A stretch of DNA of 41,481 bases, taken from the IMG/VR virus record IMGVR_UViG_2519103024_000007. One strand, given 5' to 3'. A model generated the notes under the pieces. That model was not told where the DNA came from and did not search any database. It worked only from the letters and a program-made list of their open reading frames with translations. Shown piece by piece: positions 3,837-39,372 of the stretch; position 1 is the first letter of the stretch; each line of letters starts with the position of its first letter. The position numbers were made by a program, and so were the translations under genes. The DNA comes from a virus (Duplodnaviria > Heunggongvirae > Uroviricota > Caudoviricetes).

Positions 3837-3838
3837 TA

Positions 3839-14521: not shown

Positions 14522-14524
14522 CCG

Positions 14525-16080: not shown

Positions 16081-16083
16081 CGC

Positions 16084-16862: not shown

Positions 16863-16876
16863 ACGGAGTAAACACC

Positions 16877-18735: not shown

Positions 18736-18801
18736 TTGTGCCATTCCCGACACCTCATCGTCACATTGCCGCCGGTATGACCCGACGGCATCCTTCCCGT
18801 T

Positions 18802-19437: not shown

Positions 19438-19781
19438 CTGCGCGTTATCTCGGAATGAATCGCAGTGATGGCCTGACTGTCACTGACCTTGAGCATATCA
19501 GCCAGAGTATCGGCGATATCCTGCGCACACCGGTCGGCTCGCGGGTGATGCGTCGTGATTACGGCTCGTTGCTGGCGTCAATGATTGACCAGCCGCAGAC
19601 TCCGGCGCTTGAGTTGCAGATTAAGGTCGCCTGTTACATGGCGGTGCTGAAATGGGAACCCCGCGTCACCCTGTCATCCGTCACCACTGAGCGCAGTTTT
19701 GACGGGCGAATGACGGTCACGTTAACCGGTCAGCACAACGACACCGGCCAGCCACTTTCGTTAACCATCCCTGTGAGTTGA
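19434..19781 (+). CDS. W: baseplate wedge protein
   Basis: 115 aa, overlaps V stop. Confidence 0.9.
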   Translation: MTARYLGMNRSDGLTVTDLEHISQSIGDILRTPVGSRVMRRDYGSLLASMIDQPQTPALELQIKVACYMAVLKWEPRVTLSSVTTERSFDGRMTVTLTGQHNDTGQPLSLTIPVS

Positions 19782-19785
19782 AACC

Positions 19786-20694
19786 ATGCCGATTATCGAC
19801 CTGAACCAGCTACCCGCACCGGATGTGGTCGAGGAGCTGGACTTTGAAACCATTCTTGCCGAACGCAAGGCGACACTGATTTCCCTTTACCCGGAAGACC
19901 AGCAGGAGGCGGTCGCCCGTACCCTGACGCTGGAATCCGAGCCTCTCGTCAAACTGCTGGAGGAAAATGCTTATCGTGAACTTATCTGGCGTCAGCGTGT
20001 GAATGAGGCCGCACGGGCGGTGATGCTGGCCTGTGCTGCCGGTAATGACCTTGATGTGATTGGTGCCAATTACAACACCACGCGCCTGATTATCACCCCG
20101 GCAGATGATTCGACTATCCCGCCGACACCGGCAGTGATGGAGTCTGACACCGATTACCGGCTGCGTATTCAGCAGGCGTTTGAAGGCTTAAGCGTCGCCG
20201 GGTCGGTGGGTGCCTATCAGTATCATGGCCGCAGTGCCGACGGGCGTGTCGCGGATATCTCTGTCACCAGTCCGTCTCCGGCCTGCGTCACCATCTCTGT
20301 GCTGTCACGTGAGAATAACGGTGTGGCATCCGAAGACCTGCTGGCGGTGGTACGTAACGCCCTTAATGGCGAGGATGTCAGGCCGGTGGCTGACCGCGTG
20401 ACCGTGCAGTCTGCCGCCATCGTTGAATACCAGATAAACGCCACGCTTTACCTTTACCCTGGTCCCGAAAGCGAACCCATCCGCGCGGCCGCAGTAAAAA
20501 AACTGGAAGCGTATATCACGGCACAGCACCGGCTGGGGCGCGACATCCGTCTGTCTGCCATTTATGCCGCTTTGCATGTGGAAGGCGTGCAGCGTGTCGA
20601 ACTGACTGCACCGCTGGCCGACATCGTGCTCAACAGTACGCAGGCGTCTTTCTGTACCGAATACCGCGTCGTGACCGGAGGCTCTGATGAGTGA
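19786..20694 (+). CDS. J: baseplate protein
   Basis: 302 aa; position and length as P2 gpJ. Confidence 0.9.
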   Translation: MPIIDLNQLPAPDVVEELDFETILAERKATLISLYPEDQQEAVARTLTLESEPLVKLLEENAYRELIWRQRVNEAARAVMLACAAGNDLDVIGANYNTTRLIITPADDSTIPPTPAVMESDTDYRLRIQQAFEGLSVAGSVGAYQYHGRSADGRVADISVTSPSPACVTISVLSRENNGVASEDLLAVVRNALNGEDVRPVADRVTVQSAAIVEYQINATLYLYPGPESEPIRAAAVKKLEAYITAQHRLGRDIRLSAIYAALHVEGVQRVELTAPLADIVLNSTQASFCTEYRVVTGGSDE

Positions 20695-21217
20695 TTCGCG
20701 CCTGCTGCCGACCGGCTCATCACCGCTTGAAGTTGCCGCCGCAAAAGCCTGTGCGGAAATTGAAAAAACGCCGGTCAGTATTCGTGAGCTGTGGAACCCG
20801 GACACCTGTCCGGCAAATCTGCTGCCGTGGCTGGCGTGGGCGTTTTCTGTTGACAGGTGGGATGAAAAGTGGCCGGAAGCAACAAAACGCGCCGTTATCC
20901 GCGATGCGTATTTCATTCACTGCCATAAGGGCACTATAGGCGCAATCCGGCGTGTGGTGGAGCCGCTCGGCTATCTCATTAACGTAAAGGAATGGTGGGA
21001 GACAAACGACCCGCCCGGAACCTTTCGCCTTGATATCGGTGTGCTGGAAAGCGGCATCACGGAGGAGATGTATCTGGAAATGGAACGGCTTATTGCCGAT
21101 GCCAAACCCGCAAGTCGCCACCTTATCGGTCTGAACATTATCCAGGACATTCCCGGCTGTCTGTATACAGGCGGTGTGGTCTGTGATGGTGATGTTATTA
21201 CTGTTTATCCCGGATAA
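20687..21217 (+). CDS. I: baseplate / tail fiber attachment protein
   Basis: 176 aa, overlaps J stop. Confidence 0.9.
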   Translation: MSDSRLLPTGSSPLEVAAAKACAEIEKTPVSIRELWNPDTCPANLLPWLAWAFSVDRWDEKWPEATKRAVIRDAYFIHCHKGTIGAIRRVVEPLGYLINVKEWWETNDPPGTFRLDIGVLESGITEEMYLEMERLIADAKPASRHLIGLNIIQDIPGCLYTGGVVCDGDVITVYPG

Positions 21218-21227
21218 GTGAGAAACA

Positions 21228-23957: not shown

Positions 23958-23960
23958 TTT

Positions 23961-24488
23961 ATGCAGCATTTAAAAAATATTACTGCGGGTAATCCAAAAA
24001 CTGTTGCCCAATATCAACTGACAAAAAATTTTGATGTTATCTGGTTATGGTCCGAAGAGGGAAAAAACTGGTATGAGGAAGTAAGTAATTTTCAGGAAGA
24101 CACGATAAAGATTGTTTACGATGAGAATAATATAATTGTCGGCATCACCAGAGATGCTTCAACGCTCAACCCTGAAGGTTTTAGCGTTGTCGAGGTTCCT
24201 GATATTACCGCCAACCGACGTGCTGATGACTCAGGTAAATGGATGTTTAAGGATGGTGCCGTGATTAAGCGGATTTATACGGCAGACGAACAGCTGCAAC
24301 TGGCGGAATTACAGAAGTCAGCTTTGCTTTCCGAAGCTGAAACTATCATTCAGCCACTGGAACGCTCTGTCAGACTGAATATGGCAACAGATGAGGAGCG
24401 TAGCCGACTGGAAGCATGGGAACGCTACAGTGTTCTGGTCAGCCGTGTGGATCCTGCAAATCCTGAATGGCCGGAAATGCCGCAATAA
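23961..24488 (+). CDS. G: tail fiber assembly chaperone
   Basis: 175 aa immediately after H. Confidence 0.85.
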
Positions 24489-24522
24489 GTTGTATGATCT
24501 CTGGAGTGAGCTAACGTATCTA

Positions 24523-24564
24523 TAGCACAGAGTAAAGCCTAATCTGACAGTCTGCTCTGTGCTA
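24523..24564. repeat. 10-bp-stem hairpin (TAGCACAGAG / CTCTGTGCTA) enclosing an inverted copy of the CAGACTGTCAG motif
   Basis: Perfect inverted repeat 24523-24532 / 24555-24564; loop contains CTGACAGTCTG (24544-24554), the reverse complement of the motif at 26199 and 28509. Confidence 0.75.
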
Positions 24565-24710
24565 GGAGCGGACTGACCTGCTTCCCGATGATTAATACAC
24601 AGCTATGCTAGTAATGTCCTAGACTGGCCCCCTGAATCTCCAGACAACCAATATCACTTATTTAAGTGATAGTCTTAATACTAGTTTTTAGACTAGTCAT
24701 TGGAGAGCAG

Positions 24711-25076
24711 ATGATTGATGTCTTAGGACCGGAGAAACGCAGACGGCGTACCACACAGGAAAAGATCGCAATTGTTCAGCAGAGCTTTGAACCAGGGATG
24801 ACGGTCTCCCTCGTTGCCCGGCAACACGGTGTGGCAGCCAGCCAGTTATTTCTCTGGCGTAAGCAATACCAGGAAGGAAGTCTTACTGCTGTCGCCGCCG
24901 GAGAACAGGTTGTTCCTGCCTCTGAACTTGCTGCCGCCATGAAGCAGATTAAAGAACTCCAGCGCCTGCTCGGCAAGAAAACGATGGAAAATGAACTCCT
25001 CAAAGAAGCCGTTGAATATGGACGGGCAAAAAAGTGGATAGCGCACGCGCCCTTATTGCCCGGGGATGGGGAGTAA
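24711..25076 (+). CDS. insC: IS2 transposase orfA (InsC-like, HTH)
   Basis: 121 aa from ATG 24711, [26 protein letters not shown]... Confidence 0.85.
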
Positions 25077-26135
25077 GCTTAGTCAGCCGTTGTCTCCGGG
25101 TGTCGCGTGCGCAGTTGCACGTCATTACGACGNNNNNNNNNNNNNNNNNNNNNNNNNNNNNNNNNNNNNNNNNNNNNNNNNNNNNNNNNNNNNNNNNNNN
25201 NNNNNNNNNNNNNNNNNNNNNNNNNNNNNNNNNNNNNNNNNNNNNNNNNNNNNNNNNNNNNNNNNNNNNNNNNNNNNNNNNNNNNNNNNNNNNNNNNNNN
25301 NNNNNNNNNNNNNNNNNNNNNNNNNNNNNNNNNNNNNNNNNNNNNNNNNNNNNNNNNNNNNNNNNNNNNNNNNNNNNNNNNNNNNNNNNNNNNNNNNNNN
25401 NNNNNNNNNNNNNNNNNNNNNNNNNNNNNNNNNNNNNNNNNNNNNNNNNNNNNNNNNNNNNNNNNNNNNNNNNNNNNNNNNNNNNNNNNNNNNNNNNNNN
25501 NNNNNNNNNNNNNNNNNNNNNNNNNNNNNNNNNNNNNNNNNNNNNNNNNNNNNNNNNNNNNNNNNNNNNNNNNNNNNNNNNNNNNNNNNNNNNNNNNNNN
25601 NNNNNNNNNNNNNNNNNNNNNNNNNNNNNNNNNNNNNNNNNNNNNNNNNNNNNNNNNNNNNNNNNNNNNNNNNNNNNNNNNNNNNNNNNNNNNNNNNNNN
25701 NNNNNNNNNNNNNNNNNNNNNNNNNNNNNNNNNNNNNNNNNNNNNNNNNNNNNNNNNNNATGCTGGGAGCGGTGGAACGCCGCTCGGCAACGAGCTTCCG
25801 GCGTCTCCAGTAGAGTGGCTGACGGATAATGGTTCATGCTACCGGGCTAATGAAACACGGCAGTTTGCCCGGATGTTGGGGCTTGAACCGAAGAGCACGG
25901 CGGTGCGGAGTCCGGAGAGTAACGGCATAGCAGAGAGCTTCGTGCGATAAAGCGTGACTACATCAGTGTCATGCCCAAACCAGACGGGTTAACGGCAGCA
26001 AAGAACCTTGCAGAGGCGTTCGAGCATTATAACGAATGGCATCCGCATAGTGCACTGGGTTATCGCTCGCCACGGGAATATCTGCGGCAGCAAGCCAGTA
26101 ATGGGTTAAGTGATAACAGGTGTCTGGAAATATAG
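25034..26135 (+). CDS. insD: IS2 transposase orfB (InsD-like, DDE), interrupted by assembly gap and an apparent small deletion
   Basis: N-terminal [23 protein letters not shown] and C-terminal ...[10 protein letters not shown] are on either side of the N run; premature stop at 25948-25950 (ESFVR*) where I recall extra bases in IS2. Confidence 0.6.
25133..25759. other. assembly gap (627 N)
   Basis: Uninterrupted run of n inside IS2. Confidence 1.
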
Positions 26136-26198
26136 GGGCAAATCCATGTCCGTAGATCGCTGTGTGTTGCATCCATCGGTTGAACTCACAGTCCAAAC

Positions 26199-26219
26199 CA
26201 GACTGTCAGCTTTGATTAG
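26199..26219 (+). repeat. recombination-site-like repeat, copy 1: CAGACTGTCAG-c-TTTGATTAG
   Basis: Shares the 11-mer core and TTTGAT(T)AG extension with 28509-28528; a second TGTCAG follows 28 nt downstream in both copies. Confidence 0.8.
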
Positions 26220-26397
26220 ATTCTACCTACTCAACCTGTCAGATAAGGTCTGAGCTAATACATCTAATATATGGCTTCGTGCAGGGGACGGCTATCGCGA
26301 ACGTTAGGCCAGGTATCTGAATACGCACAGTTCACTTGGTTGTACTTCTTGCACTGATCTGCTATCCCGCACAGCTATTTATAGGTAATCTTCAGTG

Positions 26398-26403
26398 TAT
26401 AAT
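26398..26403 (+). promoter_or_regulatory. candidate -10 hexamer TATAAT for the 280-aa gene
   Basis: TATAAT 39 nt upstream of ATG 26442; strong RBS AGGAG at 26431-26435; -35 element weak. Confidence 0.35.
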
Positions 26404-26441
26404 CTGCCAACTTATGGAAGCTTGTACAACAGGAGAAATAT

Positions 26442-27284
26442 ATGAAAAAAGAATTGTTTGGACGTTGCCCGTTTGATCTTGACGAAGATGTAAAAAAAAT
26501 AGCCGCGATAAATAAATATATCCATGCAAAATTTGAGGAGCATAAAAATAAAATAGACAACCTAAAGGGTGTGGAACAAAAATTGATGGTCTTACAGTAC
26601 TTTAATGTACTGAATGAACTTAGTAATCAGGCTATCTCTTCTTTGAATATAGGAGCCTTTTCAGCATCGGAAGTATTAGCTAGGGTTATAATAGAACAGG
26701 CTGCCAATCAATTTTATATAGCAATAGATGATGGCGAAAATGCACAAGCATTACTCAAGGCTAGTAAGAAATTAGTTCATAGTAATGGAAAACGGTGGCT
26801 GGAGTGTTTAAAATCCAAAGGAATGACTAATCCAGCAGCAAATGAAAGGATTCGCATGGGAAAAGAACTAACTGATCTATTTAATAGATTGTGGCCAAAT
26901 ACACCTGAATATCCAGGAACCAGAAGACTTTTTGAATTAATTGGCTGGGAAACACACTATCATGCCCATTACGTTCCCCTTTGTGATTCAATACATACAT
27001 TCTCTGATGATATGGTAAATATAGTATCTCTATATAATGCAATCCAAAGTGATGAAAATACTGCTATCGAATTCATTCTTGCAGTTAAACAAGAAAATAA
27101 ACGGCTGGCAATTTATAATTTTGTAATTGCTACGGCCCTTCGGTGTGAGGCCTTAGTAAATGTATTTAACTCTTTAGGTTATCAGGATATTATAACAGAA
27201 ATGACACCAACAATAGATACAGTCAACCAGACTATAATTCGATATGATGATTTTGATCATTCCAGAATTGATGATTGTCAATAA
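26442..27284 (+). CDS. hypothetical protein, 280 aa, no motif recognised (cargo gene 1)
   Basis: AT-rich ORF with strong RBS; soluble, no TM segment; no catalytic motif I can assign by eye. Confidence 0.6.
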   Translation: MKKELFGRCPFDLDEDVKKIAAINKYIHAKFEEHKNKIDNLKGVEQKLMVLQYFNVLNELSNQAISSLNIGAFSASEVLARVIIEQAANQFYIAIDDGENAQALLKASKKLVHSNGKRWLECLKSKGMTNPAANERIRMGKELTDLFNRLWPNTPEYPGTRRLFELIGWETHYHAHYVPLCDSIHTFSDDMVNIVSLYNAIQSDENTAIEFILAVKQENKRLAIYNFVIATALRCEALVNVFNSLGYQDIITEMTPTIDTVNQTIIRYDDFDHSRIDDCQ

Positions 27285-27390
27285 TTAATTGACAGAATAC
27301 GTACATGCGCAACAACTAGTGATAGTTGACTTATTTTCGCTCTTGAGAGACAACCATACTCAAATCTCCCACATTGCAGGAGATTTGAAT

Positions 27391-27975
27391 ATGAAAACGT
27401 CACCGTGGAATAAAGACCGTACCATCGGTCAAAAAAGGCCACTTCAGATATTTCATATCTGGGGGATCCGGATTAGACTTGAGTTGGAAGGTAAAACACG
27501 CGATCTAGCTCTGTTCAACATGGCTTTGGACACTAAGCTACGGGGCTGTGATTTGGTCAAACTCAAAGTATCAGATGCTGCATATGGCAGTTCTGTCTCA
27601 AGCAGAGCAACGGTGTTGCAACAGAAAACCGGCAGCCCTGTCCAATTTGAGATAACCAAAGGGACAAGGGAAGCGGTTACTGCATTGATAAAGCTCGGCA
27701 ACTGGCATAGTAAAGGCTTCCTGTTCCGCTCTCGGGTCGGAACTAACCACCATATATCAACCCGGCAATACAACCGAATTTTTCATGGGTGGGTAGAAAA
27801 GCTTGGTCTCGAAGATTCGCTGTACAGCACACATTCCATGAGAAGAACAAAACCTTACTTAATCTACAAGAAAACCAAGAGTCTCCGGGTGATCCAACTT
27901 CTGTTGGGCCATAAGAAACTGGAAAGCACAGTCCGTTATTTGGGCATTGAAGTCGATATAGAAGGTCTCTTTTAA
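27391..27975 (+). CDS. short tyrosine recombinase, catalytic domain only (FimB/FimE-like size)
   Basis: ATG 27391 with RBS AGGAG 8 nt upstream (track ORF starts at upstream TTG 27289); box I LRGCDLVKL, conserved K in QKTG, box II HSMRRT...LLGH...TVRY; about 194 aa, no N-terminal core-binding domain. Confidence 0.65.
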   Translation: MKTSPWNKDRTIGQKRPLQIFHIWGIRIRLELEGKTRDLALFNMALDTKLRGCDLVKLKVSDAAYGSSVSSRATVLQQKTGSPVQFEITKGTREAVTALIKLGNWHSKGFLFRSRVGTNHHISTRQYNRIFHGWVEKLGLEDSLYSTHSMRRTKPYLIYKKTKSLRVIQLLLGHKKLESTVRYLGIEVDIEGLF

Positions 27976-27997
27976 GTTATGGGGGCTGATTTTATAT

Positions 27998-28387
27998 TCA
28001 ATAGCGTATGCTCATCGAAGAAATAAACTCATAAAATGTAAAGACAGCCAGCAAAAACATACAGATAAAGATAAGGGAAATAGCACACTTAACTAAGGGC
28101 TGAACCCCCCGAGGTGTTCCCCATGGTTTAGACATTTGGGTTATAACCCAAATAAATAAGGCCACAAAACAGCAAACACCAGCCAATCCGAGCAGAGATA
28201 TTATGACAACTCCAAACAGATTTCCAACATCTAGTTTATCTGTTTTTGCAACTAGGGTTAACAAACCAGCAATAATAGTTGCAATCGATATTCCCGCAAT
28301 GGTTGTGAGATCGGCGATAACAGCCAGTTTTTCTTTAGTATTTCCTTGAGTAAAGACCTCTAAAATTGATTTCATGGAAATAACCAC
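27998..28387 (-). CDS. small membrane protein, three predicted TM helices (cargo gene 3)
   Basis: 129-aa ORF convergent with the recombinase gene; three long hydrophobic stretches. Confidence 0.5.
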   Translation of the reverse strand: MVISMKSILEVFTQGNTKEKLAVIADLTTIAGISIATIIAGLLTLVAKTDKLDVGNLFGVVIISLLGLAGVCCFVALFIWVITQMSKPWGTPRGVQPLVKCAISLIFICMFLLAVFTFYEFISSMSIRY

Positions 28388-28508
28388 CTACTATCGATTA
28401 TATTCAGGAGCTTTTTATCATAACGATATCAGATAGATAAGGACATTGTAATATTTTGGATGATTTAAACTTGCTTTTGTAACTCTAATGTCCACTTTTC
28501 GCTCAAAG

Positions 28509-28528
28509 CAGACTGTCAGGTTTGATAG
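28509..28528 (+). repeat. recombination-site-like repeat, copy 2: CAGACTGTCAG-g-TTTGATAG
   Basis: Direct-orientation partner of 26199-26219; followed by a second TGTCAG at 28548-28553. Confidence 0.8.
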
Positions 28529-28582
28529 CATTTGGGCTATGTAAATTGTCAGGCGGAAAATGAGTGAGTACAAATCAGGACA

Positions 28583-28609
28583 GGCGGGCGAATTGCCCGC
28601 CTTTTCTTT
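28583..28609 (+). terminator. rho-independent terminator candidate
   Basis: GGCGGGC-gaatt-GCCCGCC stem-loop followed by TTTTCTTT, about 100 nt upstream of FI. Confidence 0.5.
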
Positions 28610-28705
28610 ATCTGTTGTTTCATCCACTGACCAGCCAGGTCAAATAGCGTCTTATGCTCTGCACAACAGAAAATAGTTGTACCCATTAACCACGGAGTTA
28701 AACGG

Positions 28706-29938
28706 ATGAGTGACTATCATCATGGCGTGCAGGTGCTGGAGATTAACGACGGCACCCGCGTCATTTCCACCGTATCCACTGCCATTGTCGGCATGGTCTG
28801 CACGGCCAGCGATGCGGATGCGGAAACCTTCCCCCTCAATAAACCGGTGCTGATTACCAATGTGCAAAGCGCAATTGCAAAGGCCGGTAAAAAAGGCACG
28901 CTGGCGGCATCGTTGCAGGCCATCGCTGACCAGTCAAAACCGGTCACCGTTGTCGTGCGCGTGGAAGACTGCACCGGTGATGACGAGGAAACGAAACTCG
29001 CGCAGACCGTTTCCAATATCATCGGCACCACCGACGAAAACGGTCAGTACACCGGACTAAAAGCCCTGCTGGCGGCGGAGTCGGTAACCGGTGTTAAACC
29101 GCGTATTCTCGGTGTGCCGGGACTGGATACCAAAGAGGTGGCTGTTGCACTGGCATCCGTCTGTCAGAAGCTGCGCGCTTTCGGATATATCAGCGCATGG
29201 GGCTGTAAGACCATTTCCGAGGTGAAAGCCTACCGCCAGAATTTCAGCCAGCGTGAGCTGATGGTCATCTGGCCGGATTTCCTCGCATGGGATACGGTCA
29301 CCAGTACCACCGCTACCGCGTATGCCACCGCCCGTGCGCTGGGTCTGCGCGCTAAAATCGACCAGGAGCAGGGCTGGCATAAAACGCTGTCCAACGTCGG
29401 GGTAAACGGTGTTACCGGCATCAGCGCATCTGTATTCTGGGATTTGCAGGAGTCCGGCACCGATGCTGACCTGCTTAACGAGTCAGGCGTCACTACGCTG
29501 ATTCGCCGCGACGGTTTCCGATTCTGGGGTAACCGTACCTGCTCTGATGACCCGCTGTTCCTCTTTGAAAACTACACCCGCACCGCGCAGGTACTGGCTG
29601 ACACGATGGCTGAGGCGCACATGTGGGCGGTGGACAAGCCCATCACCGCAACGCTGATTCGCGACATCGTTGACGGCATCAATGCCAAATTCCGTGAGCT
29701 GAAAACAAACGGCTATATCGTGGATGCGACCTGCTGGTTCAGCGAAGAATCCAACGATGCGGAAACCCTCAAGGCCGGAAAACTGTATATCGACTACGAC
29801 TATACACCGGTGCCTCCTCTTGAAAACCTGACCCTGCGCCAGCGTATTACCGATAAATACCTGGCAAATCTGGTCACCTCGGTTAACAGCAATTATAAGG
29901 AGCCTGACCGATGGCAATGCCGCGCAAACTCAAGTTAA
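28706..29938 (+). CDS. FI: tail sheath protein
   Basis: 410 aa as read; 3' end overlaps FII by 28 nt, so the true stop may differ. Confidence 0.9.
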   Translation: MSDYHHGVQVLEINDGTRVISTVSTAIVGMVCTASDADAETFPLNKPVLITNVQSAIAKAGKKGTLAASLQAIADQSKPVTVVVRVEDCTGDDEETKLAQTVSNIIGTTDENGQYTGLKALLAAESVTGVKPRILGVPGLDTKEVAVALASVCQKLRAFGYISAWGCKTISEVKAYRQNFSQRELMVIWPDFLAWDTVTSTTATAYATARALGLRAKIDQEQGWHKTLSNVGVNGVTGISASVFWDLQESGTDADLLNESGVTTLIRRDGFRFWGNRTCSDDPLFLFENYTRTAQVLADTMAEAHMWAVDKPITATLIRDIVDGINAKFRELKTNGYIVDATCWFSEESNDAETLKAGKLYIDYDYTPVPPLENLTLRQRITDKYLANLVTSVNSNYKEPDRWQCRANSS

Positions 29939-30429
29939 TGAACGTCTTTCTGAACGGCTACAGCTATCAGGGCGTCGCGAAGTCCGTCACGCTACCAAAA
30001 CTGACCCGTAAGCTCGAAAACTATCGCGGTGCGGGGATGAACGGCAGCGCACCGGTAGACCTCGGCCTTGATGACGATGCGCTGTCAATGGAGTGGTCGC
30101 TCGGTGGCTTCCCGGATTCGGTTATCTGGGAGCTTTACGCCGCAACCGGTGTGGATTCCGTACCGATTCGTTTTGCAGGCTCTTACCAGCGCGACGATAC
30201 CGGCGAAACGGTGGCCGTCGAGGTGGTCATGCGTGGACGTCAGAAAGAAATCGACACCGGCGAGGGCAAACAGGGAGAAGACACCGAGTCGAAAATCTCC
30301 GTGGTCTGCACCTATTTCCGGCTGACGATGGACGGTAAGGAGCTGGTCGAAATCGACACCATCAACATGATTGAGAAGGTGAACGGCGTCGACCGGCTGG
30401 AGCAACACCGCCGCAATATCGGCCTGTGA
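29911..30429 (+). CDS. FII: tail tube protein
   Basis: 172 aa; position and length as P2 gpFII. Confidence 0.9.
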   Translation: MAMPRKLKLMNVFLNGYSYQGVAKSVTLPKLTRKLENYRGAGMNGSAPVDLGLDDDALSMEWSLGGFPDSVIWELYAATGVDSVPIRFAGSYQRDDTGETVAVEVVMRGRQKEIDTGEGKQGEDTESKISVVCTYFRLTMDGKELVEIDTINMIEKVNGVDRLEQHRRNIGL

Positions 30430-30485
30430 TTTTCATCCGGTCAGCCTGGCTGACCGGTTAACCCCGATTCAGAAGTGAGAAAACC

Positions 30486-30761
30486 ATGAACAAAGAAAAT
30501 GTGATTACCCTGGACAATCCGGTCAAGCGTGGTGAGCAGGTTATCGAACAGGTCACGCTGATGAAACCTAATGCCGGGACGCTGCGCGGTGTCAGTCTGG
30601 CTGCGGTCGCGAACTCCGAAGTCGATGCACTGATTAAGGTGCTGCCGCGCATGACGGCACCGATGCTGACCGAGCAGGAAGTCGCCGCGCTGGAACTGCC
30701 TGACCTTGTGGCGCTGGCCGGTAAGGTGGTCGGTTTTTTGTCGCCGAACTCGGTGCAGTGA
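30486..30761 (+). CDS. E: tail assembly chaperone E
   Basis: 91 aa, immediately upstream of the tape measure gene. Confidence 0.85.
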   Translation: MNKENVITLDNPVKRGEQVIEQVTLMKPNAGTLRGVSLAAVANSEVDALIKVLPRMTAPMLTEQEVAALELPDLVALAGKVVGFLSPNSVQ

Positions 30762-30913
30762 CGCTTCCGAAAAATCTGTCGGTCGATGACCTGATGGCGG
30801 ATGTGGCAGTGATATTTCACTGGCCGCCATCAGAACTGTATCCCATGAGCCTGACCGAACTCATCACATGGCGCGAAAAGGCGCTCAGGCGAAGCGGAAA
30901 CACGAATGAGTAA
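30486..30913 (+). CDS. E': E+E' fusion made by programmed -1 frameshift at TTTTTTG (30734-30740)
   Basis: Slippery heptamer near the end of E; the -1 frame is open from 30737 to a TAA at 30911-30913, overlapping the start of T; analogous to lambda G/GT. Confidence 0.7.
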
Positions 30914-33353
30914 CAATGTAAAATTACAGGTATTGCTCAGGGCTGTTGACCAGGCGTCCCGCCCGTTTAAATCCATCCGCACAGCGAGTAAGTTGCTGTC
31001 GGGGGATATCCGGGAAACACAAAAATCACTGCGCGAGCTGAACGGTCACGCATCCCGTATTGAGGGATTCCGCAAGACCAGTGCACAGCTCGCCGTGACT
31101 GGTCATGCACTTGAAAAGGCACGGCAGCAGGCCGAAGCCCTTGCCACACAGTTTAAAAACACCGAACGCCCGACCCGTGCTCAGGCGAAAGTGCTGGAAT
31201 CCGCAAAGCGTGCGGCGGAGGACTTACAGGCGAAATATAACCGCCTGACAGATTCCGTTAAACGCCAGCAGCGGGAACTGGCCGCTGTGGGAATTAATAC
31301 CCGCAATCTTGCACATGATGAGCAGGGACTGAAAAACCGTATCAGTGAAACCACCGCCCAGCTTAACCGGCAGCGTGACGCGCTGGCGCGTGTCAGTGCG
31401 CAACAGGCAAAACTTAACGCAGTCAAACAGCGTTATCAGGCCGGAAAGGAACTGGCCGGAAATATGGCCTCAGTGGGCGCTGCCGGTGTGGGGATTGCGG
31501 CGGCGGGAACGATGGCCGGTGTTAAGCTGCTGATGCCCGGTTATGAGTTTGCGCAGAAAAACTCAGAATTACAGGCCGTGCTCGGTGTGGCAAAAGATTC
31601 TGCCGAAATGGCCGCGCTACGCAAACAGGCGCGCCAGCTCGGCGACAACACAGCCGCCTCGGCGGATGATGCTGCCGGTGCGCAGATTATCATTGCGAAA
31701 GCCGGTGGGGATGTTGATGCCATTCAGGCGGCAACGCCGGTCACGCTGAATATGGCGCTGGCGAACCGCCGCACGATGGAAGAAAACGCCGCCCTGCTGA
31801 TGGGGATGAAATCCGCCTTTCAGCTTTCAAACGATAAGGTCGCTCATATCGGGGATGTTCTCTCCATGACGATGAACAAAACCGCCGCCGATTTTGACGG
31901 TATGAGCGATGCGCTGACCTATGCCGCACCTGTGGCAAAAAATGCCGGTGTCAGCATTGAAGAAACAGCCGCAATGGTCGGGGCGCTGCATGATGCAAAA
32001 ATTACCGGTTCAATGGCGGGAACGGGAAGCCGTGCCGTGTTAAGCCGCCTGCAGGCACCGACGGGAAAAGCATGGGATGCACTCAAAGAGCTTGGTGTGA
32101 AAACCTCAGACAGTAAGGGAAACACCCGACCAGTATTTACCATTCTGAAAGAAATGCAGGCCAGTTTTGAGAAAAACCGGCTCGGTACTGCCCAGCAGGC
32201 TGAATACATGAAAACCATTTTCGGGGAGGAGGCCAGTTCAGCCGCCGCCGTGCTGATGACTGCCGCCTCAACCGGAAAGCTGGACAAACTGACCGCTGCG
32301 TTTAAAGCCTCAGACGGAAAGACCGCAGAACTGGTAAATATCATGCAGGACAACCTCGGCGGTGACTTTAAGGAGTTTCAGTCCGCTTATGAGGCGGTGG
32401 GGACTGACCTGTTTGACCAGCAGGAAGGCGCACTGCGTAAGCTCACGCAGACGGCCACAAAGTATGTGTTAAAACTCGACGGCTGGATCCAGAAAAACAA
32501 ATCACTGGCGTTAACCATTGGCCTAATTGCCGGTGGTGCACTGGCGCTGACTGGCATCATTGGTGCCATTGGCCTCGTAGCCTGGCCGGTTATCACCGGC
32601 ATCAATGCTATTATCGCGGCAGCAGGCGCAATGGGGGCAATCTTCACGACGGTTGGCAGTGCTGTTATGACGGCCATCGGGGCGATTAGCTGGCCGGTTG
32701 TGGCCGTGGTGGCTGCCATTGTCGCCGGGGCGTTGCTTATCCGTAAATACTGGGAGCCTGTCAGCGCATTCTTTGGCGGTGTGGTTGAAGGGCTGAAAGC
32801 GGCATTTGCGCCGGTGGGGGAGCTGTTCACGCCACTTAAGCCGGTGTTTGACTGGCTGGGCGAAAAGTTACAGGCCGCGTGGCAGTGGTTTACAAACCTG
32901 ATTGCTCCGGTTAAAGCCACCCGGGACACCCTGAACCGTTGCCGTGACACGGGCGTCATGTTCGGGCAGGCACTGGCTGACGCGCTGATGCTGCCGCTTA
33001 ATGCGTTCAACAAACTGCGCAGCGGTATTGACTGGGTACTGGAAAAACTCGGTGTTATCAACAAAGAGTCAGACACACTTGACCAGACCGCCGCCAGAAC
33101 TCATGCCGCCACGTATGGCACCGGTGGTTATATTCCGGCGACCAGCTCTTATGCAGGCTATCAGGCTTATCAGCCGGTCACGGCACCGGCTGGCCGCTCT
33201 TATGTGGACCAGAGTAAAAACGAATATCACATCAGCCTGACGGGTGGTACTGCGCCGGGGACACAGCTTGACCGCCAGTTACAGGATGCGCTCGAAAAAT
33301 ACGAGCGGGATAAACGTGCGCGCGCCCGTGCCAGCATGATGCATGACGGTTAA
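30906..33353 (+). CDS. T: tail tape measure protein
   Basis: 815 aa, coiled-coil N-terminal half and Gly/Ala-rich hydrophobic segment; length as P2 gpT. Confidence 0.9.
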   Translation: MSNNVKLQVLLRAVDQASRPFKSIRTASKLLSGDIRETQKSLRELNGHASRIEGFRKTSAQLAVTGHALEKARQQAEALATQFKNTERPTRAQAKVLESAKRAAEDLQAKYNRLTDSVKRQQRELAAVGINTRNLAHDEQGLKNRISETTAQLNRQRDALARVSAQQAKLNAVKQRYQAGKELAGNMASVGAAGVGIAAAGTMAGVKLLMPGYEFAQKNSELQAVLGVAKDSAEMAALRKQARQLGDNTAASADDAAGAQIIIAKAGGDVDAIQAATPVTLNMALANRRTMEENAALLMGMKSAFQLSNDKVAHIGDVLSMTMNKTAADFDGMSDALTYAAPVAKNAGVSIEETAAMVGALHDAKITGSMAGTGSRAVLSRLQAPTGKAWDALKELGVKTSDSKGNTRPVFTILKEMQASFEKNRLGTAQQAEYMKTIFGEEASSAAAVLMTAASTGKLDKLTAAFKASDGKTAELVNIMQDNLGGDFKEFQSAYEAVGTDLFDQQEGALRKLTQTATKYVLKLDGWIQKNKSLALTIGLIAGGALALTGIIGAIGLVAWPVITGINAIIAAAGAMGAIFTTVGSAVMTAIGAISWPVVAVVAAIVAGALLIRKYWEPVSAFFGGVVEGLKAAFAPVGELFTPLKPVFDWLGEKLQAAWQWFTNLIAPVKATRDTLNRCRDTGVMFGQALADALMLPLNAFNKLRSGIDWVLEKLGVINKESDTLDQTAARTHAATYGTGGYIPATSSYAGYQAYQPVTAPAGRSYVDQSKNEYHISLTGGTAPGTQLDRQLQDALEKYERDKRARARASMMHDG

Positions 33354-33367
33354 GGAGGTGACGAAAA

Positions 33368-33847
33368 ATGATGCTCGCGTTAGGTATGTTTGTTTTTATG
33401 CGCCAGACGCTGCCACACCAGACCATGCAGCGTGAATCAGATTATCGCTGGGCGTCAAATTCCCGTATCGGCAAACGGGATGCCTTTCAGTTTCTCGGTG
33501 TTGGCGAGGAAAATATCACGCTTGCCGGTGTGCTTTATCCCGAACTGACCGGCGGCAAGCTGACGATGACCACGCTCAGGCTGATGGCTGAGGAAGGCCG
33601 GGCGTGGCCGTTGCTGGATGGCACCGGCATGATTTACGGCATGTATGTCATCAGCAGGGTGAGTGAAACAGGGAGTATTTTCTTTGCAGACGGCACACCC
33701 CGGAAAATTGATTTTACGCTGTCGCTCACCCGCGTTGATGAATCACTGGCCGCGCTTTATGGCGATATCGGTAAACAGGCAGAATCGCTCATCGGTAAGG
33801 CTGGCAGTATGGCGACTAAATTCACGGATATGACGGGGGCGGGATAA
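33368..33847 (+). CDS. U: tail protein U
   Basis: 159 aa; position and length as P2 gpU. Confidence 0.9.
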   Translation: MMLALGMFVFMRQTLPHQTMQRESDYRWASNSRIGKRDAFQFLGVGEENITLAGVLYPELTGGKLTMTTLRLMAEEGRAWPLLDGTGMIYGMYVISRVSETGSIFFADGTPRKIDFTLSLTRVDESLAALYGDIGKQAESLIGKAGSMATKFTDMTGAG

Positions 33848-35010
33848 TGCTGGATGCACTGACATTTGATGCAGGCAGTACGCTGACGCCGGATTACATG
33901 CTGATGCTCGACAACAGGGATATTACCGGCAATATCAGCGACCGTCTGATGAGCATGACCCTGACGGATAACCGGGGCTTTGAGGCTGACCAGCTTGATA
34001 TTGAACTGAACGATGCCGACGGGCAGGTCGGGCTGCCGGTTCGTGGCGCTGTCCTGACGGTGTATATCGGCTGGAAAGGTTTTGCCCTGGTATGCAAAGG
34101 GAAATTTACCGTTGATGAGGTTGAACACCGGGGCGCACCGGATGTGGTCACCATCCGCGCCCGGAGTGCAGATTTTCGCGGGACGCTCAATTCCCGCCGT
34201 GAAGGCTCCTGGCATGACACCACGCTCGGTGCGATTGTTGAAGCGATAGCCTCCCGTAACAGGCTGGAAGCCAGTGTCGCTCCGTCACTGGCCGGAATTA
34301 AAATCCCGCACATCGACCAGTCGCAGGAGTCTGATGCAAAATTCCTGACCCGCCTTGCTGAACGCAACGGCGGTGAGGTGTCGGTAAAAATGGGAAAACT
34401 GTTGTTTCTCAAGGCGGGGCAGGGGGTGACGGCCAGCGGTAAAAAAATCCCGCAGATTACCATCACCCGCAGCGACGGCGACCGCCATCATTTTGCGATT
34501 GCTGACCGTGGAGCCTATACCGGCGTAACGGCAAAGTGGTTACACACCAAAGACCCGAAGCCACAAAAGCAGAAGGTAAAACTGAAACGCAAAAAGAAAG
34601 AGAAACACCTGCGCGCACTGGAGCACCCGAAAGCGAAACCAGTCACGCAGAAGAAAGCGCCAAAAGTACCGGAAGCGCGCGAAGGTGAATACATGGCAGG
34701 TGAGGCTGACAATGTTTTTGCCCTGACCGCGGTATATGCCACGAAAGCGCAGGCCATGCGCGCCGCTCAGGCGAAGTGGGATAAGCTGCAACGGGGCGTT
34801 GCGGAGTTCTCCATCAGCCTGGCTACCGGTCGGGCAGATATTTACACGGAAACACCGGTTAAAGTGTCAGGCTTTAAGCGCGTCATAGACGAGCAGGACT
34901 GGACAATCACTAAGGTGACACATTTTCTGAATAATAGCGGCTTCACGACGTCCTTGGAGCTTGAGGTCAGGCTTTCTGATGTGGAGTACGAAACAGAAGA
35001 TGATGAGTGA
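33847..35010 (+). CDS. D: tail protein D
   Basis: 387 aa; position and length as P2 gpD. Confidence 0.9.
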   Translation: MLDALTFDAGSTLTPDYMLMLDNRDITGNISDRLMSMTLTDNRGFEADQLDIELNDADGQVGLPVRGAVLTVYIGWKGFALVCKGKFTVDEVEHRGAPDVVTIRARSADFRGTLNSRREGSWHDTTLGAIVEAIASRNRLEASVAPSLAGIKIPHIDQSQESDAKFLTRLAERNGGEVSVKMGKLLFLKAGQGVTASGKKIPQITITRSDGDRHHFAIADRGAYTGVTAKWLHTKDPKPQKQKVKLKRKKKEKHLRALEHPKAKPVTQKKAPKVPEAREGEYMAGEADNVFALTAVYATKAQAMRAAQAKWDKLQRGVAEFSISLATGRADIYTETPVKVSGFKRVIDEQDWTITKVTHFLNNSGFTTSLELEVRLSDVEYETEDDE

Positions 35011-35091
35011 TGTTTTTATTTTATCTATTTGTTTTATAAGGATAAATTAACTAAAATAGCACCATCAACAAAACCGGAAGAGGTGCTCGCG

Positions 35092-35310
35092 ATGTTTCAT
35101 TGTCCTTTATGCCAGCATGCCGCACATGCGCGTACAAGCCGCTATATCACTGACACGACAAAAGAGCGTTATCACCAGTGTCAGAACGTGAATTGCAGCG
35201 CCACATTCATCACTTATGAGTCGGTACAGCGATACATCGTGAAGCCGGGAGAAGTCCACGCCGTAAGACCGCACCCGTTGCCGTCAGGGCAGCAAATTAT
35301 GTGGATGTAA
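35092..35310 (+). CDS. ogr: late-gene transcription activator Ogr (zinc finger)
   Basis: 72 aa from ATG 35092; Cx2C-N22-Cx4C (CPLCQ...CQNVNC); last prophage gene before attR. Confidence 0.85.
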   Translation: MFHCPLCQHAAHARTSRYITDTTKERYHQCQNVNCSATFITYESVQRYIVKPGEVHAVRPHPLPSGQQIMWM

Positions 35311-35323
35311 TTACAAACAGGAA

Positions 35324-35347
35324 GCCCCTCAGTCGAGGGGCTTTTTT
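35324..35347 (+). terminator. rho-independent terminator after ogr
   Basis: GCCCCTC-agtc-GAGGGGC followed by TTTTTT. Confidence 0.6.
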
Positions 35348-35411
35348 GTCGATGTGGTCAATGTGTGGACGTGACCAGAAATAAATCCTTTTATTTCATT
35401 GTGTTACGCGT

Positions 35412-35438
35412 AAAAAATAAGCCTGCGTAAGGGAGATT
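35412..35438. repeat. prophage attR core (27 bp, 2 substitutions versus attL)
   Basis: AAAAAATAAGCCtGcGTAAGGGAGATT; overlaps the 3' terminator of cyaR. Confidence 0.7.
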
Positions 35439-35498
35439 ACACAGGCTAAGGAGGTGGTTCCTGGTACAGCTAGCATTTTATGGGTTATGTTTTTCAGC
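35412..35498 (-). ncRNA. cyaR: CyaR (RyeE) small regulatory RNA
   Basis: Reverse complement reads GCTGAAAAACATAACCCATAAAATGCTAGCTGTACCAGGAACCACCTCCTTAGCCTGTGTAATCTCCCTTACGCAGGCTTATTTTTT, matching the E. coli CyaR sequence as I recall it except for two bases in the terminator arm; 87 nt ending in U6. Confidence 0.8.
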
Positions 35499-35582: not shown

Positions 35583-36944
35583 TCACTTACCGTGGGGGTT
35601 ACGCGTGGTTTCCCCGGAGAAATTACGCATCAGCAGCGCGTAATTTAGCTCAAGATCCTGCGGCACCGGGAGCCACACAGTATAACCATCGCCTGGTGCG
35701 ACCGGCATCGCTTCACCTTTGGCGTTTTCCATATGCTCAAGGGTAAAGTTAATGTTGCCTTGCGGCGTCATCAGCTCAAGGCTGTCGCCAACGGAGAATT
35801 TATTTTTCACCGCTACCGCCGCGAGCTCCCCCTTGCGCTCACCGGTAAACTCACCAACAAACTGCTGGCGGTCAGAAACCGAATAACCGTATTCGTAGTT
35901 CTGATAATCGTCGTGGGTATGACGACGCAGGAAACCTTCGGTATAGCCACGATGCGCCAGACCTTCCAGCGTTTCCAGCAGGCTGGTATCGAACGGTTTG
36001 CCCGCAGCGGCGTCATCGATAGCTTTACGGTAAACCTGCGCGGTGCGTGCGCAATAGTAGAAAGATTTGGTACGGCCTTCGATTTTCAGCGAATGCACGC
36101 CCATTTTGGTCAGGCGTTCAACATGGGCGATGGCGCGCAGATCTTTCGAGTTCATGATGTAAGTGCCGTGCTCATCTTCAAACGCGGTCATATACTCGCC
36201 CGGACGCTGGGCTTCTTCGATCATAAACACTTTGTCGGTTGGCGCGCCGATACCCAGCGTCGGCTCAACATTTTGCACCGGAATCGGCTCGTACTTGTGT
36301 ACGATGTTGCCGACGTCATCTTCTTTCCCTTCCTGGACATTGTACTCCCAGCGGCAGGCGTTGGTGCAGGTGCCCTGGTTCGGGTCGCGCTTGTTGATAT
36401 AGCCAGAGAGCAGGCAGCGACCGGAGTAGGCCATGCACAGCGCGCCGTGAACGAAGATTTCGATCTCCATATCCGGCACCTGATTGCGGATCTCTTCAAT
36501 CTCTTCCAGTGACAGTTCGCGAGAGAGGATCACGCGGGTCAGACCCATTTGCTGCCAGAATTTCACCGTCGCCCAGTTTACGGCGTTAGCCTGTACCGAG
36601 AGGTGGATTGGCATTTCCGGGAAGTGTTCACGCACCAGCATAATCAGCCCTGGATCGGACATAATCAGCGCATCCGGCCCCATTTCCACCACCGGTTTCA
36701 GGTCACGGATAAAGGTTTTCAGCTTGGCGTTGTGCGGTGCAATGTTGACCACGACATAAAACTTTTTCCCCAGCGCGTGGGCTTCATTGATGCCGAGCTG
36801 AAGATTTTCGTGGTTGAATTCGTTGTTGCGTACACGCAGGGAGTAACGCGGCTGGCCCGCATAAACAGCATCTGCGCCATAAGCGAAAGCGTAACGCATA
36901 TTTTTCAGCGTTCCCGCCGGGGAAAGGAGTTCCGGTTTAAACAT
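35583..36944 (-). CDS. yegQ: peptidase U32-family protein YegQ / TrhP
   Basis: 453 aa, MFKPELLSPAGTLKNMRYAFAYGADAVYAG... with U32 Cys-rich motif; host gene beside cyaR. Confidence 0.85.
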   Translation of the reverse strand: MFKPELLSPAGTLKNMRYAFAYGADAVYAGQPRYSLRVRNNEFNHENLQLGINEAHALGKKFYVVVNIAPHNAKLKTFIRDLKPVVEMGPDALIMSDPGLIMLVREHFPEMPIHLSVQANAVNWATVKFWQQMGLTRVILSRELSLEEIEEIRNQVPDMEIEIFVHGALCMAYSGRCLLSGYINKRDPNQGTCTNACRWEYNVQEGKEDDVGNIVHKYEPIPVQNVEPTLGIGAPTDKVFMIEEAQRPGEYMTAFEDEHGTYIMNSKDLRAIAHVERLTKMGVHSLKIEGRTKSFYYCARTAQVYRKAIDDAAAGKPFDTSLLETLEGLAHRGYTEGFLRRHTHDDYQNYEYGYSVSDRQQFVGEFTGERKGELAAVAVKNKFSVGDSLELMTPQGNINFTLEHMENAKGEAMPVAPGDGYTVWLPVPQDLELNYALLMRNFSGETTRNPHGK

Positions 36945-39362: not shown

Positions 39363-39372
39363 AAGGATATCT

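What the first reader, a model, noticed from the sequence alone, without database searches (positions are those of the whole stretch)
35412..35498. Prophage att core lies in the CyaR terminator; integration regenerates the sRNA 3' end with altered but pairing-competent bases
The 27-bp att core is the last 27 nt of cyaR. The intact cyaR at attR carries two substitutions in the terminator's 3' arm relative to the attL copy. Folding by eye, both variants keep an 11-bp stem with one G-U wobble. The attL copy (647-673) is left as an orphan 3' fragment.
Basis: partly seen in the sequence, partly recalled or inferred. Interest (0 to 1): 0.5.

Follow-up and report, generated by a model that had tools for sequence, protein, structure and literature searches.

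The report
P2 prophage inserted in CyaR terminator
A P2-type virus has integrated into the last 27 bases of the E. coli small RNA gene cyaR and rebuilt the gene's end, which is a known integration site; the two changed bases are harmless natural variants whose origin (virus or host) cannot be settled from sequence alone.

Summary
cyaR (Rfam RF00112, 100 bits) lies on the minus strand at 35412-35498. Its last 27 nt are repeated at 647-673 with two differences. The repeats bracket a 34.7-kb P2-like prophage running from int/C/cox to gpD/ogr. The 27-mer is the annotated attP core of phage P2. Prophage-free B2 relatives join the two flanks exactly, with the core inside cyaR.

This is P2's classical chromosomal site. 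cyaR is already listed as a P2 insertion site, and K-12 carries the ogr-D' remnant there.

Both terminator versions fold into the same 11-bp stem (-16.2 and -15.9 kcal/mol). The two variable bases are A/G opposite U, so every combination pairs.

The claim that this integration altered cyaR is only partly supported:
- The window's allele (CCTGCGT) is rare in E. coli, about 30 of 5,426 records, but common in other enterobacteria.
- P2 and the four closest phages fetched carry the attL-type allele.
- Natural lysogens show both arrangements, host allele kept at attL or kept in cyaR. The positions probably lie in the strand-exchange region.

A phage-mediated import is likely. Which phage delivered it is unresolved. 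The finding is ordinary and already known in kind.

The parts
35412..35498 (-). cyaR (CyaR/RyeE sRNA gene), intact, 87 nt
   Evidence: Rfam RF00112, 100.2 bits versus gathering score 47. The ends are set by alignment to K-12 cyaR b4438.
35420..35447 (-). CyaR intrinsic terminator hairpin (11 bp, loop UCUCCC), followed by the U tail at 35412-35419
35412..35438 (.). attR core, 27 bp, equal to the last 27 nt of cyaR. The variable bases are T35424 and C35426.
   Evidence: It aligns with the annotated P2 attP core AF063097 24356-24382.
647..673 (.). attL core, an orphan copy of the cyaR 3' end. The variable bases are C659 and T661.
   Evidence: No hairpin, no terminator and no Rfam hit.
674..35411 (.). 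P2-like (Peduovirus) prophage between the two cores, about 34.7 kb
   Evidence: The int, C, cox, gpD and ogr domains. The reconstituted attP region is 97.5-99.2% identical to P2, P2_4C9 and phage 10W. It is collinear with the annotated P2-like prophage of S88.
753..1766 (-). P2-type tyrosine integrase
   Evidence: Pfam Int_N and Phage_integrase. Annotated as site-specific integrase in ATCC 11775.
690..787 (.). Cox-binding region and P' arm Int sites (TGTGGACA repeats), assigned by position from the P2 annotation
   Evidence: P2 features transferred through the gap-free alignment; sequence.
1882..2181 (-). C-type immunity repressor (HTH)
2296..2571 (+). cox (excisionase/directionality factor)
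   Evidence: Pfam Phage_Cox, 5.5e-48.
33847..35010 (+). Gene D (tail/late control)
   Evidence: Pfam Phage_GPD.
35092..35310 (+). ogr (late gene activator). The mechanical ORF listing starts at 35029; the ATG homologous to P2 ogr is at 35092.
   Evidence: Pfam Ogr_Delta; P2 annotation.
35321..35411 (.). ogr terminator, P arm Int site (about 35349-35376) and IHF site (about 35380-35413) of the phage att region
   Evidence: P2 annotation transferred through the alignment.
595..646 (.). Bacterial flank next to attL that resembles a decayed P2 P arm (TCGATGTGGTCAATG...GACCAG..ATA), present in nearly all E. coli
   Evidence: Repeat D13; alignments; 5,418 of 5,426 genomes match the left flank.
1..318 (+). 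yegR (left chromosomal flank)
35583..36944 (-). yegQ/trhP (right chromosomal flank)
   Evidence: Pfam Peptidase_U32; annotations.

Best explanation
The window is from an E. coli B2 strain (identical at both junctions to ATCC 11775). It carries a P2-like prophage integrated at P2's classical chromosomal site, the 3' end of cyaR.

The phage tyrosine integrase recombined the 27-bp attP core with the identical-length attB. That attB is the loop, 3' stem arm and U tail of the CyaR terminator. Because phage and host share the core, the junction next to ogr (attR) reconstitutes a complete cyaR. The junction next to int (attL) keeps a non-functional 27-nt copy.

The two differences between the copies sit at positions 13 and 15, the centre of the core. 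In the RNA they are A/G opposite U4 and U6 of the 5' arm. All four combinations therefore keep the 11-bp stem (Watson-Crick or G-U), and CyaR termination and Hfq binding should be unaffected.

Shown: the anatomy, the site, the folding, and the population and cross-genus polymorphism.

Inferred:
- The rare CCTGCGT allele in this lineage was imported by integrase-mediated exchange rather than by mutation or homologous recombination (about 0.8). The argument: 366 bp to the left and 6 kb to the right are essentially identical to strain S88, which has CCCGTGT.
- This prophage, rather than an earlier one or the pre-existing host site, delivered it (about 0.5-0.55).
- The two positions lie inside the strand-exchange (overlap) region, so either parental allele can end up in cyaR (about 0.6).
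For: Anatomy:
- cyaR and its strand; repeat and its significance; phage genes.
- P2 attP core, arm, IHF and Cox annotation, aligned without gaps.
- Host identified by 100% matches at both ends.

Empty site:
- A synthetic join of the two flanks through one core is 100% identical over 349 bp in UTI89, CFT073, ATCC 25922 and others.
- 4,572 of 5,426 genomes have an empty-type junction.
- 1,273 have a P2-type arm next to cyaR.

Public record:
- K-12 RefSeq annotates cryptic prophage PR-X starting inside cyaR, followed by ogrK and yegZ.
- Archer et al. 2011 (PMC3032704, Table 2) list 'cyaR RNA' as the insertion site of P2-type elements in E. coli W, K-12 and B.

Folding: -16.2, -15.9, -16.6 and -15.5 kcal/mol for the four allele combinations, all 11 bp.

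Polymorphism:
- E. coli records: CCCGTGT 4,834, CCTGTGT 530, CCTGCGT about 30.
- 120 enterobacterial genomes: CC 50, TC 48, CT 21, TT 1.
- Of the 117 that have a cyaR 5' arm beside the core, 4 carry a mismatch at a variable pair.

Import rather than mutation: the window and S88 differ by 2 SNPs in 6 kb of right flank and by none in the 366 bp left of the core, yet they differ at both variable positions.

Both phases in nature:
- E. albertii lysogen: attL TC (host allele), attR CT.
- MSB1_4E: attL CT, attR TT, with a B flank 0/600 different from JJ1887, whose empty site is TT.
Against: - No phage attP carrying CCTGCGT with P2-type arms was found. The five phage records fetched and the one IMG/VR attP-like junction are all CCCGTGT.
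- Sites with CCTGCGT and no prophage exist in E. coli (LH13-b, 2018-11-1BCC, 510016). The allele could therefore have been in the host before integration.
- I could not read the primary papers that map P2 Int cleavage points, so placing positions 13 and 15 in the overlap region is my inference from linkage patterns.
- Those patterns rest on assuming that a lysogen's ancestor had the same allele as its closest prophage-free relative.
- Prophages in this lineage are mosaic (window, S88 and APEC O1 differ by about 2% in the early region), so the history is complex.
Confidence: 0.85

Rival explanations
1. The cyaR allele CCTGCGT was already in the host chromosome before this prophage arrived. Integration crossed over to the U-tail side of positions 13-15. 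cyaR therefore kept its own stem bases, and the attL copy (CCCGTGT) is the phage's core. On this reading the integration did not alter the stem of the sRNA.
For: - P2, the four closest phages fetched and the IMG/VR attP-like junction all have CCCGTGT.
- 100 of 103 junctions made of the core plus a P2-type P' arm carry CCCGTGT, whatever the bacterial flank haplotype.
- MSB1_4E shows exactly this phase.
- S88 has the same P arm but a different attR allele.
- Unoccupied CCTGCGT sites exist in E. coli.
Against: - CCTGCGT is in only about 0.55% of E. coli records.
- The closest prophage-free relatives (UTI89, CFT073, IHE3034 and others) are CCCGTGT with 100% identical flanks.
- S88, which has 2 SNPs in 6 kb of flank, is CCCGTGT.
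- The E. albertii lysogen shows the opposite phase.
- Even on this reading the rare allele, sitting in otherwise identical flanks, still needs an earlier site-specific import.
Confidence: 0.3
2. The two differences arose by point mutation in cyaR after integration, tolerated because each keeps a U-A or U-G pair.
For: Both changes are transitions. All three alleles are connected by single viable steps (CT-TT-TC), and the intermediate CCTGTGT exists in 530 records. Pairing is preserved in all of them.
Against: - It needs two changes 2 nt apart in a lineage that shows only 2 SNPs in 6 kb of adjacent flank relative to S88.
- The resulting allele is identical to the one that is standard in Citrobacter, Salmonella and others.
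- The same allele recurs in unrelated E. coli with a different P2-like prophage (EC11, UTAK-6).
Confidence: 0.05
3. The allele was imported by RecA-dependent homologous recombination with DNA from another strain, unrelated to phage integrase.
For: E. coli recombines frequently, and prophage segments in this lineage are visibly mosaic.
Against: Donors carrying CCTGCGT differ from the window immediately left of the core, with a different P arm or a bacterial flank. The left crossover would have to fall within the 12-nt AAAAAATAAGCC. No other donor SNPs are seen for 366 bp to the left or in the 6 kb to the right.
Confidence: 0.07

Closest known systems
Phage P2 integration at its preferred E. coli site (locI) and the K-12 P2 remnant (ogrK-yegZ, 'cryptic prophage PR-X', 'ogr-D'')
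   Same: - Same 27-bp core as annotated in P2 (AF063097 24356-24382).
- Same arm, IHF and Cox architecture.
- Same chromosomal position between yegR and yegQ, with ogr next to the cyaR-proximal junction.
- cyaR is listed as the P2 insertion site in PMC3032704.
- From memory, not readable here: Yu et al. 1989 (Gene 80:1) and Barreiro & Haggard-Ljungquist 1992 (J Bacteriol 174:4086) defined the 27-nt core, locI and the K-12 remnant of D'-ogr-attR.
   Different: This is a complete prophage, not a remnant. It is 97.5% identical to P2 in the att region and carries different accessory genes. Its cyaR-side core carries the rare CCTGCGT variant instead of CCCGTGT.
Integration of temperate phages and islands into the 3' ends of tRNA/tmRNA genes with regeneration of the gene (phage 186 in tRNA-Ile, Fels-2/SopE-phi in ssrA, HP1 in tRNA-Leu)
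   Same: The att core duplicates the 3' part of a structured RNA gene. The gene stays intact at one junction and an orphan 3' fragment is left at the other. This is described for P2-like phages in PMC3448106.
   Different: The target is an Hfq-dependent sRNA terminator rather than a tRNA acceptor/T arm. PMC3448106 describes P2-type integrases as integrating 'between other genes' and does not mention cyaR (one search found 0 occurrences).
Other sRNA genes used as P2-like or other phage attachment sites (rybB, sdsR/ryeB)
   Same: PMC3032704 Table 2 lists rybB ncRNA as another P2-type insertion site. [quoted passage not shown]
   Different: Different RNAs, cores and integrase specificities.

Membership tests
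P2-like (Peduovirus) prophage integrated at the P2 locI/cyaR site | P2-type tyrosine integrase adjacent to one junction, with the divergent C repressor / cox switch next to it | tested here: met
   Int_N and Phage_integrase at 753-1766(-), HTH repressor at 1882-2181(-), Phage_Cox at 2296-2571(+).
P2-like (Peduovirus) prophage integrated at the P2 locI/cyaR site | ogr and gene D adjacent to the other junction | tested here: met
   Phage_GPD at 33847-35010 and Ogr_Delta at 35092-35310.
P2-like (Peduovirus) prophage integrated at the P2 locI/cyaR site | 27-bp core equal to the annotated P2 attP core, as direct repeats at both ends | tested here: met
   attL is 27/27 and attR 25/27 identical to the P2 core.
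P2-like (Peduovirus) prophage integrated at the P2 locI/cyaR site | P and P' arm Int sites (tgTGGaCa repeats), IHF and Cox sites flanking the core | tested here: met
   Gap-free alignment to the annotated P2 att region, 97.5% identical over 603 nt. The arm consensus is from PMC3448106.
P2-like (Peduovirus) prophage integrated at the P2 locI/cyaR site | Prophage-free relatives have the two flanks joined through a single core | tested here: met
   100% match of the synthetic junction in many B2 genomes. JJ1887 and LH13-b loci were fetched.
P2-like (Peduovirus) prophage integrated at the P2 locI/cyaR site | Complete structural/lysis module and the ability to excise and form virions | not tested
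   The window is collinear with the annotated P2-like prophage of S88 over most of its length. The window's structural genes were not annotated one by one. An IS insertion at 24624-26145 and a fragmented accessory gene are present. Excision cannot be tested in silico.
CyaR/RyeE sRNA (Rfam RF00112) | Covariance-model score above the family's gathering threshold over the full model | tested here: met
   100.2 bits versus 47, model positions 1-85 of 85.
CyaR/RyeE sRNA (Rfam RF00112) | Rho-independent terminator hairpin followed by a U tract (Hfq-binding 3' end) | tested here: met
   11-bp stem, -16.2 kcal/mol, tail UUAUUUUUU.
CyaR/RyeE sRNA (Rfam RF00112) | Conserved genomic context next to yegQ/trhP | tested here: met
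   yegQ at 35583-36944(-), as in K-12.
CyaR/RyeE sRNA (Rfam RF00112) | cAMP-CRP-dependent expression and Hfq-dependent regulation of ompX and other targets | not testable with these tools
   Needs expression data. Known for K-12 and Salmonella from the literature cited in PMC3333887.

The most novel reading that the evidence does not exclude
The 3' half of the CyaR terminator behaves as a horizontally exchangeable cassette. P2-like integrases across Enterobacteriaceae use the same 27-mer, and the two central positions lie in the strand-exchange region. Integration and excision would then move 3'-arm alleles between hosts: CCTGCGT matches the GCCUGCGU 5' arm of Citrobacter and Salmonella perfectly, and P2's CCCGTGT matches the GCCCGUGU arm found in some Kluyvera. 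The G-U wobble found in the CyaR terminator of about 89% of E. coli would be a scar of an ancient P2-like integration, and its decayed P arm still sits downstream of cyaR in virtually every E. coli. The sRNA would tolerate this only because its 5' arm presents U at both positions.
Probability: 0.35. Interest if true: 0.4.

Novelty: already known. Interest (0 to 1): 0.2.

Why it matters
The main point has little consequence. It is a textbook case of a temperate phage integrating into the 3' end of an RNA gene and restoring it, at a site known for P2 and already associated with cyaR in genome papers and in the K-12 annotation.

The useful by-products are practical:
- Prophage-boundary callers should place this boundary inside cyaR.
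- cyaR in lysogens should be annotated as intact.
- The two central core positions are natural markers that could be used to map P2 Int strand exchange in vivo.

If the exchangeable-cassette reading holds, it would be a small, clean example of phage-driven allele turnover inside a functional sRNA, buffered by G-U wobble.

Tried and rejected
1. I looked for a sequenced phage whose attP carries the cyaR-side allele CCTGCGT.
   - INPHARED megablast with the reconstituted attP and the fetched top hits gave only CCCGTGT.
   - An IMG/VR scan for the core plus a P2 P' arm gave one attP-like junction, also CCCGTGT. The only CCTGCGT hit was an E. albertii attL.
2. I tried to assign the variable bases to phage or host by linkage to flanks.
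   - attL alleles against bacterial-flank haplotypes and attR alleles against P-arm variants showed no strict linkage on either side.
   - Paired junctions gave both phases. I therefore rejected both simple models, a crossover always left or always right of positions 13-15.
3. I hypothesised that S88 and the window share one integration event, so that the allele changed in situ. This was rejected: the prophages are about 2% divergent with different accessory genes. APEC O1 is a third mosaic.
4. I tried to read the primary literature on P2 att sites and on CyaR genomic context (PMC2620814, PMC193207, PMC206961). None is held. Statements about locI, the 27-nt core papers and tolerance of core mismatches rest on my memory and are marked as such.
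5. I considered a chance repeat and rejected it.

Full report
OBSERVATION

The 27-mer AAAAAATAAGCCTGCGTAAGGGAGATT is at 35412-35438. AAAAAATAAGCCCGTGTAAGGGAGATT is at 647-673. Allowing 3 mismatches, these are the only two matches in the window, and none is expected in shuffles.

Rfam finds a single CyaR_RyeE gene, on the minus strand, covering the full model at 100.2 bits against a gathering score of 47. Aligned to K-12 cyaR, the gene is 35412-35498(-). The repeat is therefore exactly its last 27 nt: two bases of the 5' arm, the loop UCUCCC, the whole 3' arm and the tail UUAUUUUUU.

The two differences are core positions 13 and 15 (35424/35426 versus 659/661). The terminator folds into 11 bp with one G-U pair at -16.2 kcal/mol. 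Swapping in the attL-type arm gives 11 bp with one G-U at -15.9. The other two combinations give -16.6 and -15.5. A pattern scan calls the terminator at 35447-35420(-) and finds nothing at attL. The attL copy has no 5' arm and does not fold.

WHAT LIES BETWEEN THE REPEATS

Reading from the left, the element contains:
- a P2-type tyrosine integrase (753-1766, -);
- an HTH repressor (1882-2181, -);
- cox (2296-2571, +);
- and, at the far end, gene D (33847-35010) and ogr (35092-35310).

Rejoining the two ends in silico recreates an attP region that is 97.5% identical to phage P2 and 99.2% identical to Peduovirus P2_4C9 and phage 10W. In the P2 GenBank record the 27-mer is annotated as the attP core. 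It is flanked by the Int P arm, the IHF site, the Cox sites and the Int P' arm, and all of these align to the window without gaps.

The host is E. coli phylogroup B2. Both junctions are 100% identical to ATCC 11775 and relatives. yegR is on the left and yegQ/trhP on the right.

PROPHAGE-FREE LOCI

A synthetic junction (left flank, one core, right flank) is 100% identical over 349 bp in UTI89, CFT073, IHE3034, ATCC 25922 and many others. In all, 4,572 of 5,426 complete genomes have this empty-type arrangement. In 1,273 genomes a P2-type arm abuts cyaR, as a prophage or a remnant. In each unoccupied locus I fetched and aligned, the core is the 3' end of cyaR.

ALREADY KNOWN

- K-12 RefSeq annotates 'cryptic prophage PR-X' starting 18 nt inside cyaR, followed by ogrK and the gene-D pseudogene yegZ.
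- Archer et al. 2011 list 'cyaR RNA' as the insertion site of Wphi2 (P2) in strain W, ogr-D' in K-12 and P2*B in strain B (PMC3032704).
- From memory (papers not held here): the 27-nt core and locI were defined by Yu et al. 1989 and by Barreiro & Haggard-Ljungquist 1992. The latter also described the K-12 remnant of D'-ogr-attR.
- Integration into the 3' end of structured RNA genes with regeneration of the gene is the general habit of this phage group (PMC3448106).

THE TWO VARIABLE BASES

In the RNA they are purines opposite U4 and U6 of the 5' arm GCCUGUGU. A or G at either site pairs, so nothing compensatory is needed.

In E. coli complete-genome records the intact cyaR carries:
- CCCGTGT in 4,834;
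- CCTGTGT in 530 (for example the ST131-type strain JJ1887);
- the window's CCTGCGT in about 30.

Across 120 genomes of other Enterobacteriaceae species the same 27-mer ends cyaR, with alleles CC 50, TC 48, CT 21 and TT 1. Most genera have the 5' arm GCCUGCGU, with which the window's 3' arm ACGCAGGC is a perfect Watson-Crick partner. Of the 117 genomes with a cyaR 5' arm beside the core, four have a mismatch at a variable pair. The window's cyaR therefore carries an allele that is rare in its own species but standard elsewhere.

WHO SUPPLIED THE BASES?

For a phage origin through this integration:
- The closest prophage-free relatives are CCCGTGT.
- Strain S88, whose flanks differ from the window by 0 of 646 nt on the left and 2 of about 6,000 nt on the right, has CCCGTGT at attR. 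It carries a different P2-like prophage, about 2% divergent.
- The rare allele also sits at attR in two E. coli strains carrying a different, Citrobacter-like P2-type prophage (EC11, UTAK-6), with CCCGTGT at EC11's attL.

Against it:
- P2, the four closest phages fetched and the one IMG/VR attP-like junction have CCCGTGT.
- The attR allele is not tied to the P arm. S88 shows this, and an EC11-type arm also occurs with CCCGTGT.
- Unoccupied CCTGCGT sites exist.

Paired junctions in other lysogens show both phases:
- In an E. albertii lysogen, the non-lysogenic type strain has TC. The lysogen's attL keeps TC and cyaR has the P2 allele CT. Its flanks are 4/370 and 1/370 different from the type strain.
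- In MSB1_4E the bacterial flank is 0/600 different from JJ1887, whose empty site is TT. Here attL has the P2 allele CT and cyaR keeps TT.
- Two further lysogens have attL TT and attR CT.

A crossover fixed on either side of positions 13-15 cannot give both outcomes. The simplest reading is that these central positions lie between the two strand-exchange points. A heteroduplex then forms, and either parental allele can segregate into cyaR. That is inference; I could not consult the cleavage-mapping papers.

One thing can be said with more confidence. The rare allele sits in flanks that are otherwise identical to CCCGTGT strains on both sides. It was therefore most probably introduced by a site-specific, integrase-mediated event. 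Two point mutations or RecA recombination are less likely explanations. Whether the resident prophage or an earlier phage did it remains open. Prophages in this clade are mosaic (window, S88 and APEC O1 each differ), so superinfection and exchange clearly happen.

MECHANISM AND CONSEQUENCE

Int, with IHF, synapses attP with the cyaR terminator DNA and exchanges strands within the 27-bp identity. The ogr-side junction re-forms a full cyaR, and the int-side junction keeps an inert copy.

All observed alleles give the same stem length, near-identical stability and an unchanged U tail. CyaR termination and Hfq loading are therefore predicted to be unaffected. This has not been tested. For reference, the K-12 CyaR terminator showed about 41% read-through in a reporter (PMC9765468).

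VERDICT

It is unproven about the integration having changed the bases. The phenomenon is known, and interest is low. The modest new point is the natural two-position polymorphism at the centre of the P2 core and its shuffling among hosts.

OTHER OBSERVATIONS

These are listed under Noticed in passing:
- the bacterial flank next to attL looks like a decayed P2 P arm fixed in E. coli;
- a fragmented candidate defence ATPase;
- a strain-specific IS insertion;
- an accessory pair of a DUF5677 protein and a small recombinase;
- a variable island beyond yegQ.

Noticed in passing
window 595-646 (and the same spacer in nearly all E. coli): The 'bacterial' flank next to attL resembles the phage P arm (TCGATGTGGTCAATG...GACCAG..ATA; 75% over 40 nt versus 35344-35383) but lacks the IHF-site segment. 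Escherichia sp. MOD1-EC7003 still keeps that segment, and E. albertii has a different P-arm remnant. E. whittamii has an unrelated flank resembling those of several other genera. The unoccupied E. coli site therefore looks like a fossil attR of an ancient P2-like phage.
   Followed up: partly
window 6840-9052 (minus strand): In the slot between gene A and the portal gene, four consecutive ORFs (149, 169, 184 and 115 aa) together cover one roughly 727-aa AAA_13 / PADLOC PDC-S06 (PrrC-like) ATPase profile. This looks like a candidate anti-phage gene broken by frameshifts or stops, or by sequencing errors.
   Followed up: partly
window 24624-26145: A 1.5-kb insertion carries IS3-family transposase pieces (HTH_Tnp_1 at 24666-25076; a weak rve match at 25066-25950). 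It is absent from otherwise >=99.97% identical copies of the same prophage in IMG/VR (L242, L247), so it is a strain-specific IS insertion after the tail-fibre assembly gene.
   Followed up: partly
window 26442-27975: There is an accessory pair between the tail-fibre and sheath genes: a DUF5677 protein (26442-27284) and a short, 228-aa tyrosine-recombinase-like protein (27289-27975). S88 has the same pair. No PADLOC match was found and the function is unknown.
   Followed up: no
window 37432-41481: Beyond yegQ the window has PcfJ-like, DUF1266 and DUF4034 genes, where K-12 and JJ1887 have yegP-baeR directly. EC11 and UTAK-6 have a RelE/ParE-ParD toxin-antitoxin pair there. The yegQ-yegP gap is a second variable spot next to cyaR.
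   Followed up: no
window 634-659: GGGCTTAtgcataaaaaaTAAGCCC is a 7-bp inverted repeat formed by the bacterial flank and the first half of the core. It is complete only with C at core position 13. In unoccupied CCCGTGT strains a read-through cyaR transcript could fold a second hairpin that reuses the terminator's GGGCUUA. Its significance is unknown.
   Followed up: no
L293 (E. coli S88) and L137/L261 (APEC O1-like): Closely related ST95 hosts carry different versions of the P2-like prophage at this site. S88 has a frameshifted int and an IS21-family element in the capsid gene. The APEC O1-like copy is about 24 kb. The early regions differ by about 2% among the three, although the first 1 kb is identical.
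   Followed up: partly
L294 (E. coli EC11) about 9590-9620 and 42364: The Citrobacter-like P2-type prophage of EC11 shares only 22 nt of the core with its target (AAAAAATAAGCCYGYGTAAGGG). Its integrase must therefore exchange strands within that shorter segment of the cyaR terminator.
   Followed up: partly
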